In this document: piece by piece, positions 38,921 through 44,234 of the stretch
Numbering within the stretch: the stretch's first letter is position 1
Layout of the letters: every line of letters begins with the position of its first letter
Assembly: GCF_009914755.1 (NCBI RefSeq)
Contig: NC_060930.1
Direction: 5' to 3' (one strand)
Length of the DNA: 64,000 nucleotides
Source of the DNA: the human T2T-CHM13v2.0 reference genome, Homo sapiens
The notes under the pieces: model-generated
Databases searched by the model: none
Seen by the model: only the letters and a program-made list of their open reading frames with translations
What the model was told of the DNA's origin: nothing
Made by a program: the position numbers and the translations under genes

Positions 38921-39396
38921 AATGATGCTCAAAACAGAAGATAATAACGAATTACACAAGGAACATTGCCCAGTAAAGAAATTGACTGTCCATTGTCAGA
39001 ATGGAAATGCCTGAAGAGGATTTAAATGTTTTGAAAGAGTCTGGTAACTTAATGGTACAGGAGCTAGGAAACACCAGTGTTTCAGAATACAGCCAAGAAA
39101 TAAATGCAGAAAAGCAACCACGTCTGACAGCAGTGGAGATTAAGAATTTCTAAATTGATATACCATGATACTGCTGTCCAGTCTGCCTGAGAAGGTAAGG
39201 TCGGGCTAGATTTTTATAAGATGCCCTGGGAATATGGAATGTTTACCCTTCTTGGGAGTGGGACACTTGCCATTTTCTTCAGGGGAAGACTTTTTCTATA
39301 ATGAGTGGAAATGTCAAGTGATTGAACAATGGATTGCACAGAAATTTAAAATGATCTTGGCAGAATTAAAATAAATCATTTAAAAGTTATCAGATT

Positions 39397-39726
39397 AATT
39401 TTGGGGACAAATAAGAACATTTTAATAGGGCTTGTATTTTAGATTTTGGAATTATTGTTAATTTTCTGAGGTATGAGCATGGTATTATGGTTGTGTAGGA
39501 AAGCATCCTTATATTTCTAGAAGATTTATGTTGAAATATATAGGGGTGGAGTTCCACAAAATGTACGCTTTGCTTCCAAATTTGTCAGCAAAAAAGTGTA
39601 TGTCATACCTAAGGAAAAATAAAATACAGTGAAATGGAAATAATGAGTGAATATTGGTGAGGAGTATATGGGGTATTCATTATACTAATCTTTCAACTTT
39701 TTCTGTAGGTGTGAGTTTCCAAAATA
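39397..39726 (+). mobile_element. Old L1M 3' fragment inserted into the MIA3 retrocopy
   Basis: L1M 3' motifs (atggtattatggttgtgtaggaaa; attggtgaggagtatatgggtattcatt). Degenerate TSD aaaagttat. Confidence 0.7.
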
Positions 39727-39948
39727 AAAAGTTATTCAATTCAGAACAGAATATCAAAGCAGCAAAGATATCTTTTAGAGAAATCAAGACCTAAAATAAA
39801 CATCTTCCTGAGGAAGTATCTGGGCTTAAAGATACAATCAGTTGACTCGAAGAAACAATTCAAACGCACAGAAAGATGTGCTTACAGTTTGGGGAACAGA
39901 ATATCAAGAAGACTGGAAAGCTGAAACTCTATGGAAAGGTTACACATC

Positions 39949-40245
39949 CTTTTTTTGTTTTTCTTTTGAGATGGAGTTTCGCTCTGTCACCCAGGCTGGA
40001 GTGCAATGGCATGATCTGGGCTCACTGCTCTCTGCCTCCCAGGTTCAAGCAATTCTCCTGCTTCAGCCTCCTGAGTAGCTGGGATTACAGGCACCTGCCA
40101 CCAAGCCTGGCTGATTTTTGTATTTTTAGTAGAGATGGGGTTTCACCATGTTGGTCAGGCTGGTCTCAAATTCCTGACCTCATGATCCGCCCACCTCAGA
40201 CTCCCAAAGTGTTGAGATAACAGGTGTGAGCCACCGTGTCCGGCC
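39949..40245 (-). mobile_element. AluS
   Basis: Antisense dimer, TSD aggttacacat. Confidence 0.92.
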
Positions 40246-41282
40246 AGGTTACACATTTTTACAGGTAATTTTATTTTAAAACTTCCAGACAGGGGATCTC
40301 CCTAATAAAGATTATCTAAGCAAAGTGAAGGGACAATGTCTTGACACTACTAAGTTCAAGAAGAAAAAATTCCAGACTTAAGTCGGCATGGAACAATTAT
40401 TATTTGGGAAGGACAAGGTTGGAATGAATGAAATACTGAGCTCAGGAAATGAATTACATTGTATTTGAAATCTCAGAAAGTCCTAGAAGCAGCTCTATTG
40501 CATAAAGAGGATGAAACTCCCATTTTGAATAATTACACTGAGCTGCTGAAACACCTGATGATCAGGGTGAGAAGACAAAAAGTCAGAAAAGACAGACAGT
40601 AGCTACCGCTTCAACAAAATTAAGATCAGTTGGAAACAGTGGAGTCCATTTCCAATTCCGACTGTGTGATGACGTGTCAGCTAGGCAAAAGCAGGAAGCA
40701 CAGAGAAGTTGGACATGGACCTTGGACACAGCATTTCATCAAAGCTCACCTGAAAAATGGATGCACAGCCTTGTAGCTGAAGCACAAGTTCTAAATGCCC
40801 TGGACAGGCAGAGAGGCATGGCTCCGCAGGAGAATGGATAGGAAGAGGGAGAGCAAGAGCTCTCAGCAGCAGAGGAAGTGAAAGCTCATCAGCAAGTAAT
40901 TTAAGAACTGGAGGATGAATTACAGGGTGGGTGGGGGATGAGATCTAATAAGACCTAGATTGCTCTTAATGGTCGGAAAGTCCGTGACAGCAGGCATACC
41001 GCTGGTGCTGCAGAAAGAGCTTTAGTTGGAAAGAAGAGGCAAACTGCCAGACCCGGACAGAAATTAATACAAGGAAAACCAAGACACCAATGCTTCAAAC
41101 ACCAGTGACTATAACTCCAGGAAGACACGATTACCAAATCCTATTATAGAGAGCTCTCCTGTGCCAAAGCTGATCTTTTGGCCCACCTGCCAGAACTGGA
41201 GGTGTCCTCTCCCCAGGGTCTGCTACATGAGTTGCTGGGTCCAGTACAAAATAAAAATGTGTGTCTCTTGATCGAAAAGCAA

Positions 41283-41508
41283 AGCCTGGGCAACATGGAA
41301 AAACCCAGCCACTACCTAAAATACAAAAAAAAAAAAAAAAAAAATTAGCTGGGCATGGTGGCACACACTTGTAGTCCCAGCTACCTAGGGGGCTGAGGCA
41401 GGAGGATCACTTGAACCTGGGAGGTCAAGGCTGCAGTGAGCCAAGATTGTTCCACTGCAGTCCAGCCTGGGAGACAAAGTGAGACTGTGTCTCAAAAAAA
41501 AAAAAAAA
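41283..41508 (+). mobile_element. 5'-truncated AluJ
   Basis: Linker plus right arm and A-tail. Confidence 0.85.
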
Positions 41509-41687
41509 GAACAGGAAAAAATGCCCCTGAAGGTACTAAAATATATAGCTCTTTCCTTTCTTCTGAGGTTTGGTGCTTTCTGTCAACTTGGCATGGTATT
41601 TTTTACTTGCCACTTAAGGTAAATCTCAGTAAAGAAAAATTAAAAATTGTAATTATACCGTTCATCTTTACATTATCTAATGGCAGT

Positions 41688-41986
41688 TTTACTTATGTAT
41701 TTAGAGACAGAGTCTTGCTGTTCCCCAGGCTGGAATGCAGAGGTGCAATCATAGCTCACTGCAGCCTCAAATTCCTGGGCTCAAGCAATCCTCCTGCTTT
41801 AGTCCCCTGAGTAGCTGGGACTATAGGTGCATGCCACCATGCCTGACTTATTTTTTTTTTTTTTTTTTTTTTGTAGAGACGTGGTCTCGCTATGTTTCCC
41901 GGGCTGATTTTGAACTCCTGGCCTCAAGTGATCATCCTGCCTTGGCCTCCCAAGGGGATTACAGACCTGAACCACCATACCCAGCC
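41688..41986 (-). mobile_element. AluJ
   Basis: Antisense dimer. Confidence 0.88.
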
Positions 41987-43467
41987 CACCAATGGCAATT
42001 TTAAATGCAAATATAACAGCATTTCTCTCATATGCAGAATCACTGAAATGATACAATTCTCATTTTTTTAGCTTATATATGTATATATTATTTTGTTCTT
42101 ATCAGAAAAATGGAAATGTTGCACAGAACTAACTAAACTCTTTTTATTTCACTTCCAATATACCTACGTTCCACCAGCATGCTCTCTCTTCAGATGACTG
42201 AGGAGTGAGGAAGGACTGAGGGTAAAAGGAACCATGTGCTGTCCTGTCTTTCCCTCTCCTTCTGTGTCATAATTGTCAGTGTCTGTGGCTGGCAAATACA
42301 GGGAGGTGGCATGAGTGAACAGGATGTGAATGAGGATGTGACAGAGTTCCTTGGTCCTTCATGTTTCTTAGAACACCGTTGCCTTCTTTCTGCATTTAAA
42401 GCAAGTTCTGGTTCAAAGGGAAAGTGTGGTCTCAGCTTACTCACTCAATACACATAACACACTTACGTTGCTCTTGCTTTGTGCCTTGTTTCACTTAACT
42501 CCCACGCATAGAAGGCCCACCAGAATTCTGTGCTCAGAAAACCAAAACACAAATTCAAAGAGAAAAGTATGAAGAGTTTCAAGAAGGCAACAGCAGAGCA
42601 TTAGACCAAGCATGAGGCCTGAGCACAGGGCCATGTGCCACTGCACACACCGCATACCCAGAAGGCCAGCCCTGGCTCCATCCCACAAGTCATCATGGGC
42701 TATCTGGGCGAATCCTTTTCTCTCTAAGAGTGGGATCTAGAAGGGAATTTGCAACTGTCAGTCAGCCTCTACCTGGCTCTGGAAGCCTCTCACATTCCAC
42801 GATGGATGACATAATTGATATTGTCCAAGGAGTACCAGCATGATCTCACCAAAGAGAGGATGCCATTGTCCTGGGTGAATGTACCACCTCCTAACCTAAC
42901 CTTAGGCACCTCCATACTTTTTCCTCCCAGAGTCCTCCTGGGCCTGTTCTTCCTGACCAAGAGAAGATTCCCTAGACTTTCATCAGGAATAAGGGTCCTT
43001 CAAGTATTTCATGGACATCCACTTTCTAGATCCATAGTTTCTTGGCCTAAAATGATGTATTCCTTCTGGTTCCCACTGACTCCTCCCAACCCCATGGCCA
43101 TCCAAGGAGAGGCCTTCACATTTCAGTGTCTGCACTGCCTCCTACATGCATTTGTTCTCAATGTCGTATACAGGACATTTCAGGGGCTTCTCTCGGACTT
43201 TTACCCTGAGTCCCTGAATAGAATTTTTAAAACTTTTCATATGCTTCAAAATGAAATATGCCTTTACCTTGAATATTAGACTTGTGCTTACTATTTTTAA
43301 ATGTTCTTTTTTTTTTTTTTTTTTTTTTGCTGACCAAGCAAGTCGACTCTGAATTTTGTAGAAGGGAAAACATTTGTATTTATTAACATGAAGATCACCT
43401 CTGAAGCTTTATCCTGCTACATACCTGTTCTAGTTTTAGTTCCTGTAGTTTGGGTCATTGATACGTC

Positions 43468-43780
<313 letters not shown>

Positions 43781-44234
43781 TGATACATGTTTTTACGTGT
43801 TAGGAAAAATATAATATGTTTGAATAATTTTTCTTTCCTAAATTCAAACACACACACATACACACAAATTGTTCCCATTCTCACAGTAGAAAATGACTTC
43901 ATTGATGAATACAAATAGCAATCCCAAAACGTTTGTCAACAGCTCCCTGTGTACTTATTCCCGGAATGGTACCGACAGCTAGAAAGCACAGCTACCCTAC
44001 TCAGAGAATTGAAGAAAGCCAAACCACGGCAACAACCAAGCCTTGTACATCTTGCAAGGGGTAGCTGGGGCCTCAGCTCCTCTAAGGAGCCCCAGATCCT
44101 GGCCCACCCCACACACTGAAACCATCCTTCTCTGTACTTCCTTGACCCTTTCATTTTCCCATTCTGTTACCCTCTGCCTACCGCGAACTTTTTTTTTTTT
44201 TTTCCAGAGAATAACCTTTATTTAGAGTATTTGG

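What the first reader, a model, noticed from the sequence alone, without database searches (positions are those of the whole stretch)
38925..43215. Very old TANGO1/MIA3 retrocopy, invisible to the ORF track and fragmented by three TE insertions
After removing an L1M piece (39397-39726), an Alu (39949-40245) and a MER45+Alu block (41214-42673), about 2.2 kb remains that follows the C-terminal part of MIA3 in order and without introns. The match resumes exactly across the L1: KLSD|SEQNIK vs KLSNYEQKIK. It matches MIA3 rather than MIA2/CTAGE5 (QVIEQWIAQKFK, SAAEEVK). Insertion of L1M and MER45 implies it predates the primates. At least one deletion is in frame (LSAA[DEKAVSAA]EEVK) and amino-acid divergence is high, so it may once have been a functional retrogene, paralleling the CTAGE retrogene family from MIA2. 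It lies antisense inside an intron of the candidate dead gene. I do not recall it being annotated.
Basis: partly seen in the sequence, partly recalled or inferred. Interest (0 to 1): 0.75.

Follow-up and report, generated by a model that had tools for sequence, protein, structure and literature searches.

The report
Dead relative of SPZ1, TANGO1-derived
This stretch is a long-dead, intron-free copy of the tail half of the TANGO1/MIA3 gene; it is an ordinary fossil in itself, but it belongs to a small old family of such copies whose one surviving member is the testis gene SPZ1.

Summary
A spliced MIA3 cDNA, rebuilt from chromosome 1 of the same assembly, hits the 64-kb window only here: four collinear + strand pieces (39179-39397, 39728-39948, 40296-41214, 42677-43411; best E 3e-55). 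All 17 assessable exon junctions (of 21) are crossed base-to-base. An MIA2/CTAGE-type cDNA finds nothing.

The interpretation needs changing. The element is not an independent MIA3 retrocopy. SPZ1's nearest other family in a 5.8-billion-protein database is TANGO1/MIA3 (E about 1e-41).

The window copy shows no sign of past function. Divergence is equal at all codon positions, there are 19 stops against 20 expected, and 15 of 54 indels are multiples of three. It also shares stop codons with its sister copy, so it was duplicated from an already dead ancestor. It keeps a segment that SPZ1 lacks in all five orthologues aligned, so it probably predates the placental radiation. Whether GENCODE annotates it could not be checked.

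The parts
38998..39178 (+). 5' segment of the copy, upstream of the TM-exon match; possibly derived from a luminal exon of the long MIA3 isoform
   Evidence: Shared with sister copies C20 (73% over 70 nt) and C6b (67% over 75 nt). W-C20 identity is 60/85 in 39045-39145 and falls to the ~40% random level upstream of ~38966. Protein-level match of 38998-39114 to C1:221865939-221866055 is 36% over 39 residues, E 0.049, or 1.2e-4 in a small database. The DNA-level match is not better than shuffles.
39179..39397 (+). MIA3 cDNA 9-233: transmembrane exon, 22-nt micro-exon and the next coiled-coil exon, without introns
   Evidence: nhmmer E 8.4e-9. Junctions at cDNA 132 and 154 are crossed by adjacent bases. 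Two TAA stops at MIA3 codons 70 and 73 are shared with C6b.
39398..39727 (.).
   Evidence: Absent from MIA3 cDNA and from C4, C20 and C6b, which are contiguous across cDNA 233. Direct repeats at 39382-39396 and 39727-39741 (12 of 15 identical) both align to cDNA 219-233. 18 other genomic matches at 70-88% identity.
39728..39947 (+). MIA3 cDNA 219-471 (coiled-coil exons), without introns
   Evidence: nhmmer E 7.2e-7. Junctions at cDNA 243, 321 and 432 are crossed by adjacent bases.
39948..40245 (-). Insertion 2: Alu (antisense) with an 11-nt target-site duplication AGGTTACACAT
   Evidence: Sequence read (TSD at 39937-39947 and 40246-40256). 78-82% identity to Alus in other loci. Masked 39943-40248 in the hub table.
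40246..41214 (+). MIA3 cDNA ~472-1559: main coiled-coil block, including the site of the inherited 24-nt deletion (between window 40867 and 40868) and a private 63-nt deletion (between 40558 and 40559)
   Evidence: nhmmer 40296-41214, E 3.2e-55. 10 junctions are crossed by adjacent bases. Deletions mapped.
41215..42676 (.). About 98-117 nt of cDNA is missing at this point.
   Evidence: cDNA 1559 at 41214 resumes at cDNA 1658/1677 at 42677/42696. Alu matches. For 42000-42673: 440 first-look candidates, 40 scored, giving 46 matches besides itself; the long ones are 67-73% identical and a few short ones up to 83%.
42677..43411 (+). MIA3 cDNA 1658-2452: proline-rich tail, the position of the parental stop codon (~43215) and the first ~40-205 nt of 3'UTR
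   Evidence: nhmmer E 3.3e-11 to 43411. In the multi-target run the hit ends at cDNA 2288 = window 43258. Junctions at cDNA 1705, 1785 and 1936 are crossed by adjacent bases. No MIA3-like match beyond; an Alu lies at ~43452-43790.

Best explanation
Window ~38998-43411 (+) is a non-functional processed copy of the C-terminal half of MIA3/TANGO1. It belongs to the SPZ1 branch of that gene's descendants. Shown: it is intronless, collinear with spliced MIA3 mRNA from the transmembrane exon to just past the stop codon, and closer to MIA3 than to MIA2. It shares derived substitutions and deletions with four other intronless copies: chr6:35.36 Mb, chr20:9.96 Mb, chr4:112.35 Mb and the intact gene SPZ1 at chr5:80.80 Mb. 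Inferred history: one MIA3 mRNA was reverse-transcribed into the genome of an early mammal. That founder accumulated about 0.1 substitutions per site and a 24-nt deletion. It was then copied several times; whether through RNA or DNA is unresolved. One descendant became SPZ1. The others decayed, including the common ancestor of this element and the chr6:35.36 Mb copy, which already carried stop codons. This copy has since drifted neutrally and later received an old dispersed repeat, a second old repeat and three Alus. It does nothing as a coding sequence today, and nothing indicates it ever did at this locus.
For: Retrocopy of MIA3 type: 4 of 4 nhmmer hits in the window are collinear on + (best E 3e-55). 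17 of 17 assessable junctions (of 21) are crossed base-to-base. The CTAGE-type cDNA and protein give 0 hits at E<=1, although the same cDNA finds MIA3 cDNA at 5e-24. Founder family: at 711 sites where MIA3 equals the outgroup and at least 3 copies are covered, all covering copies share one non-MIA3 base at 26 sites, against ~1.3 expected. 25 of the 26 are non-CpG; 8 shared transversions against 0.32 expected and 17 shared transitions against 1.58. A 24-nt deletion is shared by W, C4, C20 and C5, and a 3-nt deletion by W, C4 and C6b. In the ML tree the five copies are monophyletic at 100% (stem 0.107), W+C6b at 94% and C4+C5 at 85%; the clade stays at 100% without CpG sites and with RY coding. 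Polarity: bird TANGO1, human MIA3 and the CTAGE protein all have the 8 residues, while SPZ1 of human, elephant, armadillo, cow and rat lack them. C5 is SPZ1: 96% identical to the orang-utan protein of that name, with named orthologues across placentals, followed directly by bird TGO1/MIA3 at E 4e-41 to 3e-36. Neutral decay of W: divergence 0.345/0.368/0.376 at codon positions 1/2/3; 19 stops in 568 gap-free codons against a simulated 20 (12-28); 15 of 54 indels are multiples of three; dN/dS is 0.92, 0.85 and 0.90 against C4, C6b and C5. Duplicated from an already dead copy: stops at MIA3 codons 70, 73 and 386 are shared with C6b, and the identical string with both TAAs is seen. Age: W, C4 and C20 keep cDNA ~709-966, which is missing from all 5 SPZ1 orthologues aligned.
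Against: No poly(A) tail or target-site duplication of the copy itself can be recognised, as expected at K about 0.5. The 5' 180 nt cannot be tied securely to a MIA3 exon. dN/dS against C20 is 0.67 and against MIA3 0.66, i.e. below 1; part of that is the constrained MIA3 branch, and C20 itself has somewhat few stops (11 against 19 expected, 3.4% of simulations). The 24-nt deletion lies between short direct repeats and could in principle recur. The outgroup used for polarising substitutions is distant (55% identity). The node joining C20 to the rest is poorly supported (37-55%). The family census is a lower bound. No other mammalian genome could be examined, so orthology and age rest on indirect arguments.
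Confidence: 0.85

Rival explanations
1. One reading: an independent, direct retrocopy of MIA3 mRNA, 5'-truncated, unrelated to any other copy.
For: It is collinear with MIA3 cDNA and extends into the proline-rich tail and 3'UTR, which SPZ1 no longer shows. MIA3 is the only intron-bearing relative found.
Against: 26 shared derived sites against ~1.3-1.9 expected, shared 24-nt and 3-nt deletions, and a 100% clade with a stem of 0.10 that survives CpG removal and RY coding. Stops are shared with C6b. All five copies begin matching at the same exon boundary.
Confidence: 0.06
2. The copy at this locus was once a working retrogene that died later.
For: Several deletions are in frame (24, 63 and 21 nt). 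Amino-acid divergence is high. A sister lineage (SPZ1) did become a gene.
Against: The 24-nt deletion is inherited. 15 of 54 indels are multiples of three, about one third. Codon positions are equally diverged and stops match the neutral simulation (48% of simulations have as few or fewer). At least two, probably three, stops predate the split from C6b.
Confidence: 0.03
3. The common source of the five copies was not a retrocopy but an intron-containing MIA3 duplicate (or a variant MIA3 allele or isoform) of early mammals, since lost, whose mRNA was retrocopied several times.
For: This would equally explain the stem, the shared deletion and the common 5' limit. No flanking homology between copies was found beyond the transcript-derived part, so each copy looks RNA-mediated.
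Against: No such gene or remnant turned up in this assembly. The stem changes show no depletion at second codon positions (6, 10 and 10 changes at positions 1, 2 and 3 among 231, 290 and 190 candidate sites), which is unlike a conserved paralogue. It needs one extra gene birth and loss.
Confidence: 0.06

Closest known systems
SPZ1 (spermatogenic leucine zipper protein 1), G000:C5:80804184-80805473
   Same: Same founder lineage: shares the 24-nt deletion and the derived substitutions, is intronless, and starts at the same MIA3 exon boundary.
   Different: SPZ1 keeps a 430-codon frame in the MIA3 reading frame; its only in-frame stop is its own terminator, against ~14.5 stops expected. It has lost cDNA ~709-966 and everything after cDNA ~1419, and it is conserved as a named gene across placentals. 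The window copy has 19 stops and 39 frame-shifting indels.
Sister dead copies: C6:35.36 Mb (-), C20:9.96 Mb (-), C4:112.35 Mb (+)
   Same: All are intronless MIA3-type copies of the same clade, with similar divergence from MIA3 (62-66% identity). C6b is the closest (94% bootstrap, shared stops).
   Different: They sit at different loci, cover different extents (C4 to cDNA 1704, C20 to 2120, C6b to 1486) and carry different later insertions. The window copy is the only one of the five with a detected match reaching the end of the coding sequence and into the 3'UTR.
CTAGE retrogene family derived from MIA2/cTAGE5 (C18, C13, C10, C7, C6:132.9 Mb)
   Same: Intronless copies of the paralogous ER-exit-site gene, covering the same part of the protein from the TM segment to the proline-rich tail.
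   Different: Different parent: CTAGE-type cDNA gives 0 hits in the window. The CTAGE copies keep 803-863-residue open frames, whereas this copy is saturated with disablements. That CTAGE copies are primate-age is recalled, not tested.
Ordinary processed pseudogenes
   Same: Lack of introns, location away from the parent, neutral decay, later repeat insertions.
   Different: It is a second-generation member: it was copied from an already diverged and already disabled relative rather than from the parent gene's mRNA.

Membership tests
Processed (retro)copy of MIA3/TANGO1 | Collinear similarity to the spliced parental mRNA, significant against the whole window | tested here: met
   4 of 4 nhmmer hits on +, in order, best E 3.2e-55. 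Permissive alignment score 2343 against at most 745 for shuffled, reversed or reverse-complement controls.
Processed (retro)copy of MIA3/TANGO1 | Parental introns absent at exon junctions | tested here: met
   17 of 21 junctions crossed by adjacent bases, 0 with extra bases, 4 not assessable. The three large interruptions lie at cDNA 233, 469-512 and 1559-1677, none at a junction.
Processed (retro)copy of MIA3/TANGO1 | Poly(A) tract at the 3' end and target-site duplications of the copy itself | tested here: inconclusive
   No A-run follows 43258-43411 in the sequence read. Flanks were inspected by eye only. Erosion is expected at K2P about 0.5.
Processed (retro)copy of MIA3/TANGO1 | Closer to MIA3 than to the paralogue MIA2/cTAGE5 | tested here: met
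   CTAGE-type cDNA: 0 nhmmer hits at E<=1. CTAGE-type protein: 0 tblastn HSPs, against 3 for MIA3. MIA2 itself was represented only by an intact CTAGE retrogene (C18).
SPZ1-founder clade of MIA3-derived copies | Shared 24-nt (8-codon) deletion relative to MIA3, bird TANGO1 and CTAGE | tested here: met
   A gap of exactly 24 nt in W, C4, C20 and C5; C6b has 18+2 nt at a shifted place. The 8 residues are absent in 5 of 5 SPZ1 orthologues and present in 3 of 3 bird TANGO1, human MIA3 and CTAGE.
SPZ1-founder clade of MIA3-derived copies | Shared derived substitutions and monophyly | tested here: met
   26 all-shared derived sites against ~1.3 expected. 25 are non-CpG, 8 transversions against 0.32 expected. 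Clade at 100% bootstrap in three analyses.
Formerly functional retrogene at this locus | Lower divergence at codon positions 1 and 2 than at position 3; dN/dS below 1 against other dead copies | tested here: not met
   0.345/0.368/0.376. dN/dS 0.92 (C4), 0.85 (C6b), 0.90 (C5), 0.67 (C20).
Formerly functional retrogene at this locus | Fewer stops and frameshifts than neutral decay predicts | tested here: not met
   19 stops against a simulated mean of 20.0 (2.5-97.5%: 12-28). 39 of 54 indels shift the frame. Stops at codons 70, 73 and 386 are shared with C6b.
Annotated pseudogene (GENCODE, RefSeq, retrogene tracks) | A record at this position | not testable with these tools
   The hub's RefSeq table has no row between 3618 and 64000. 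GENCODE, pseudogene.org and UCSC tracks are not available. 0 papers hold SPZ1P1, SPZ1P2, MIA3P1, MIA3P2, 'SPZ1 pseudogene' or 'MIA3 pseudogene'.

The most novel reading that the evidence does not exclude
SPZ1, described as a testis transcription factor, is a retrogene born from the coiled-coil half of the ER-exit-site cargo receptor TANGO1/MIA3. Its early lineage acted as a source of further copies, so the human genome holds at least four 'retrocopies of a retrocopy', the window element among them, all older than the placental radiation. This origin and this family appear not to be in print. It would mean that SPZ1's reported leucine-zipper region is homologous to TANGO1's coiled coil.
Probability: 0.4. 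Interest if true: 0.6.

Novelty: new member of a known kind. Interest (0 to 1): 0.4.

Why it matters
On its own the element is one more ancient processed pseudogene. Its value is as a witness. Because it kept MIA3's transmembrane exon, the segment SPZ1 later lost, the proline-rich tail and a bit of 3'UTR, it ties the fast-evolving, family-less SPZ1 protein to TANGO1/MIA3 (no Pfam family; no paralogue listed for Spz1 in the table of PMC3428356, passage seen). It also shows the order of events: retroposition, a 24-nt deletion, a burst of copying, then truncation into SPZ1 before placentals diverged. That gives a dated example of a secretory-pathway scaffold being turned into a germ-line nuclear factor, and a MIA3-side counterpart to the MIA2-derived CTAGE family. 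It also warns that an in-frame deletion in a pseudogene may be inherited rather than a sign of past constraint.

Tried and rejected
1. Finding the parent by word-seeded searches with the decayed frames failed: a 54-residue frame and a 189-residue read-through with X at stops found only the window itself and chance hits. The large protein database and PDB sequences gave nothing. MIA3 was reached instead through its neighbour AIDA (Pfam PF14186).
2. tblastx and blastx of whole loci were swamped by Alu translations and abandoned in favour of repeat-free queries.
3. Permissive local alignment over-extends into unrelated 3' sequence. Its identity profile (57-80% throughout) cannot define the ends, so it was replaced by nhmmer.
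4. All numbers are invalid because of a column-mapping bug. One search stopped on an assertion. One search is the corrected run.
5. The alternative first exon of the short MIA3 isoform (C1:221878216-326) matches none of the 5 copies.
6. A DNA-level match of the upstream segment to any chr1 exon was not found, and the candidate luminal exon does no better than 30 shuffles.
7. CpG-decay homoplasy as the cause of the shared sites was tested and rejected.
8. Pfam gave no family above cut-off for SPZ1 or the CTAGE-type frame.
10. Repeat family names cannot be assigned with the tools at hand; only dispersal and copy-to-copy identity were measured.
Full report
**1. What was checked first**

No tool held a human MIA3 record, so I built the reference from the window's own assembly. 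A Pfam search for AIDA's C2 domain placed AIDA's exons at C1:221,903,658-221,909,954. AIDA is the gene I recalled as lying tail-to-tail with MIA3.

The 60 kb below that position carry open frames that end in a proline-rich tail and a stop. I anchored the exons with the intact CTAGE-type frame on C18 and the C5 frame, and found a 22-nt micro-exon by phase and splice score. From these I assembled 22 exons. Every boundary is AG...GT, and together they give one open frame of 748 codons plus stop. That this is MIA3 rests on its position next to AIDA, on my recollection of the protein, and on 79% identity between the one human exon I aligned and bird proteins named TGO1 / melanoma inhibitory activity protein 3.

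**2.

- nhmmer of this cDNA plus 3'UTR against all 64 kb, both strands, returned four hits and no others. All are on + and in order: cDNA 9-233 to 39179-39397, 219-471 to 39728-39948, 512-1559 to 40296-41214 (E 3.2e-55), and 1658-2452 to 42677-43411.
- Of the 21 parental exon junctions, 17 are crossed by adjacent window bases, none has extra bases, and 4 fall in gaps or uncovered stretches.
- The three interruptions lie inside exons (cDNA 233, 469-512, 1559-1677), so they are insertions and not retained introns.
- The first insertion has a ~15-nt target-site duplication, both copies of which align to cDNA 219-233, and 18 other genomic matches at 70-88% identity.
- The second is an Alu with an 11-nt duplication.
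- The third holds two Alus and a repeat. That repeat had 440 first-look candidates, of which 40 were scored; these gave 46 matches besides itself, the long ones at 67-73% identity.
- The names L1M and MER45 could not be verified.
- The literal tblastn check gives 3 HSPs for the MIA3 tail, all in the interval, and 0 for the CTAGE-type protein. The CTAGE-type cDNA gives 0 nhmmer hits at E<=1, although it detects MIA3 cDNA at 5e-24.

On the ends: MIA3 similarity begins at 39179. The stretch 38998-39178 is shared with two sister copies, but it resembles a luminal MIA3 exon only at the protein level (36% over 39 residues). The stretch 38925-38997 is unsupported. The 3' end lies at 43258 in one run and 43411 in another, past the stop-codon site.

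**3. It is not alone**

The first genome search with the candidate's DNA found three weak matches. These proved to be collinear, intronless copies at C6:35.36 Mb, C20:9.96 Mb and C4:112.35 Mb. A search with one MIA3 exon peptide also found an intronless place on C5 with a 459-residue open frame and 57% identity.

That C5 frame is SPZ1:
- It runs 430 residues from its first Met.
- It is 96% identical to the orang-utan protein named spermatogenic leucine zipper protein 1.
- Named orthologues are listed from Afrotheria, Xenarthra, Laurasiatheria and Euarchontoglires. No marsupial or monotreme appears among the 120 hits listed of 133.
- Directly below the SPZ1 orthologues, the next hits are bird TGO1/MIA3 proteins at E 4e-41 to 3e-36.
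- Within the human assembly, SPZ1's best non-self match is the MIA3 exon on chr1.

In every copy all assessable junctions are intron-free: W 17, C4 16, C20 15, C6b 10, C5 13.

**4. One founder, not five events**

I used a reference-anchored alignment (one search is void).

- **Shared substitutions:** I took the 711 sites where MIA3 agrees with the CTAGE outgroup and at least three copies are covered. At 26 of them all covering copies share the same non-MIA3 base, against about 1.3 expected if they had decayed independently.
- **Not CpG homoplasy:** 25 of the 26 are non-CpG. There are 8 shared transversions against 0.32 expected and 17 shared transitions against 1.58.
- **Converse class:** sites where the copies agree with the outgroup and MIA3 differs number 15 of 588. 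A rough correction for outgroup saturation still puts about three times more change on the stem than on the MIA3 branch (my arithmetic, an inference).
- **Shared deletions:** a 24-nt deletion is shared by W, C4, C20 and C5, and a 3-nt deletion by W, C4 and C6b.
- **Polarity of the 24-nt gap:** bird TANGO1 (3 of 3), the human MIA3 exon and the CTAGE protein have the eight residues. SPZ1 of human, elephant, armadillo, cow and rat (5 of 5) lack them.
- **Tree:** ML trees place the five copies in one clade at 100% bootstrap (stem 0.107; 0.103 without CpG sites; 0.054 with RY coding). W+C6b get 94, 87 and 78%, and C4+C5 get 85, 81 and 77%.
- **Common 5' limit:** all five copies begin matching at the same exon boundary.

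**5. No functional past at this locus**

- W is 63.7% identical to MIA3 over 1802 aligned coding bases (K2P 0.505).
- Divergence is 0.345/0.368/0.376 at codon positions 1/2/3.
- There are 19 stops in 568 gap-free codons, where a neutral simulation gives 20.0 (12-28).
- There are 54 indels, of which 15 are multiples of three.
- dN/dS is 0.92, 0.85 and 0.90 against C4, C6b and C5, but 0.67 against C20 and 0.66 against MIA3.
- W and C6b share stops at MIA3 codons 70, 73 and 386. The alignment shows the identical segment with both TAAs in W and C6b, where SPZ1 keeps sense codons; C20 shares the second one. By my estimate about 0.2 shared stops would be expected by chance. Their common ancestor was therefore already disabled.
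- By contrast SPZ1 has one stop in 350 aligned codons, which is its own terminator (~14.5 expected), and 5 of its 7 indels are multiples of three. Yet it diverges almost as fast as the dead copies: its frame is kept, but its sequence is only weakly constrained.

**6. Age**

W, C4 and C20 retain cDNA ~709-966. The five SPZ1 orthologues aligned, which include an afrotherian and a xenarthran, all lack it. So these copies left the SPZ1 lineage before that loss, which itself predates the placental ancestor.

Root-to-tip length for W is about 0.42 substitutions per site. With a recalled mammalian neutral rate of about 2.2e-9 per site per year, this is of the order of 150-200 million years, which is a rough inference. 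The old repeats inserted into W, with long copies 67-73% alike, fit this age.

**7. Mode of copying**

No homology between copies was seen beyond the transcript-derived part. This favours RNA-mediated copying even for the already dead W/C6b ancestor. However, W and C6b lie 3.6 Mb apart on 6p in opposite orientation, so a small DNA duplication is not excluded. Whether the founder sat at the SPZ1 locus is unknown.

**8. Literature**

- SPZ1 with MIA3: 2 papers. From the search listing alone (title and start of abstract) they look unrelated to gene origins; neither was opened.
- SPZ1 with TANGO1: 0 papers.
- SPZ1 with retrogene: 2 papers. One, PMC3428356, lists mouse Spz1 among intronless spermatogenic genes with the paralogue column empty (passage seen). 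The other was seen only in the listing.
- SPZ1 with retrocop*: 1 paper. It calls SPZ1 a late-spermatogenesis transcription factor and says nothing on its origin (passages seen).
- SPZ1 with cTAGE: 3 papers. One (PMC13488206) was seen in passages and is a gene list; the other two were seen in the listing only.
- Pseudogene names (SPZ1P1, SPZ1P2, MIA3P1, MIA3P2, 'SPZ1 pseudogene', 'MIA3 pseudogene'): 0 papers.
- PMC13488206 also lists SPZ1 in a 5q14 interval with SERINC5, THBS4 and DHFR (passage seen).

The SPZ1-TANGO1 similarity is strong enough that it may well be recorded there.

**9. Verdict**

The element is an ordinary dead processed copy. Its interest is indirect: it belongs to the SPZ1 branch of TANGO1/MIA3 descendants and helps reconstruct that gene's birth.

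Noticed in passing
G000:C5:80804184-80805473 (L039:4184-5473): SPZ1 in this assembly carries a tandem duplication of about 48 residues (ETNITEDVSAHKENIRGLDKINEML... twice), giving 430 residues like the orang-utan record. Most listed orthologues and one Homo sapiens record are about 382 residues. This may be a length polymorphism or a great-ape feature.
   Followed up: partly
G000:C2:11341568-11341999, C1:77649694-77650125, C4:161630216-161630644: Three intronless, near full-length matches to the AIDA C2 domain (profile 2-145 of 146) sit in open frames of 193, 316 and 150 residues, apart from the exon-split AIDA gene itself. They look like AIDA retrocopies, one with a frame about as long as I recall the whole protein to be.
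   Followed up: no
window 43308-43332 and 43452-43790: A 25-nt T-run lies inside the 3'UTR-derived end of the copy, and a further Alu lies immediately downstream. The Alu is not in the hub's list of longest masked stretches.
   Followed up: no
G000:C1:221882569-221882590 and 221878216-221878326: MIA3 has a 22-nt micro-exon (VKDRVYQ|V) between the TM exon and the first coiled-coil exon; all copies contain its equivalent. A candidate alternative first exon (MDSVPATVPS...KLLE|gtgaca) lies 1 kb upstream of the TM exon; no copy matches it.
   Followed up: partly
G000:C20:9958106-9960683 (L037, minus strand): The chr20 copy has fewer stops than neutral decay predicts (11 against 19.1; 3.4% of simulations) and the lowest dN/dS against the other copies (0.46-0.67). 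This is a weak hint that this copy, not the window one, spent some time under constraint.
   Followed up: no
proteins P0112-P0120: Partial bird TGO1/MIA3 proteins carry a precomputed Pfam label PF06409, while SPZ1 orthologues carry none (two have PF11348). I did not look up what these families are.
   Followed up: no
L041-L047 (G000:C14:33450001-33520000): The MIA2 locus was fetched but never analysed. MIA2 was represented only by the intact CTAGE-type retrogene on C18.
   Followed up: no
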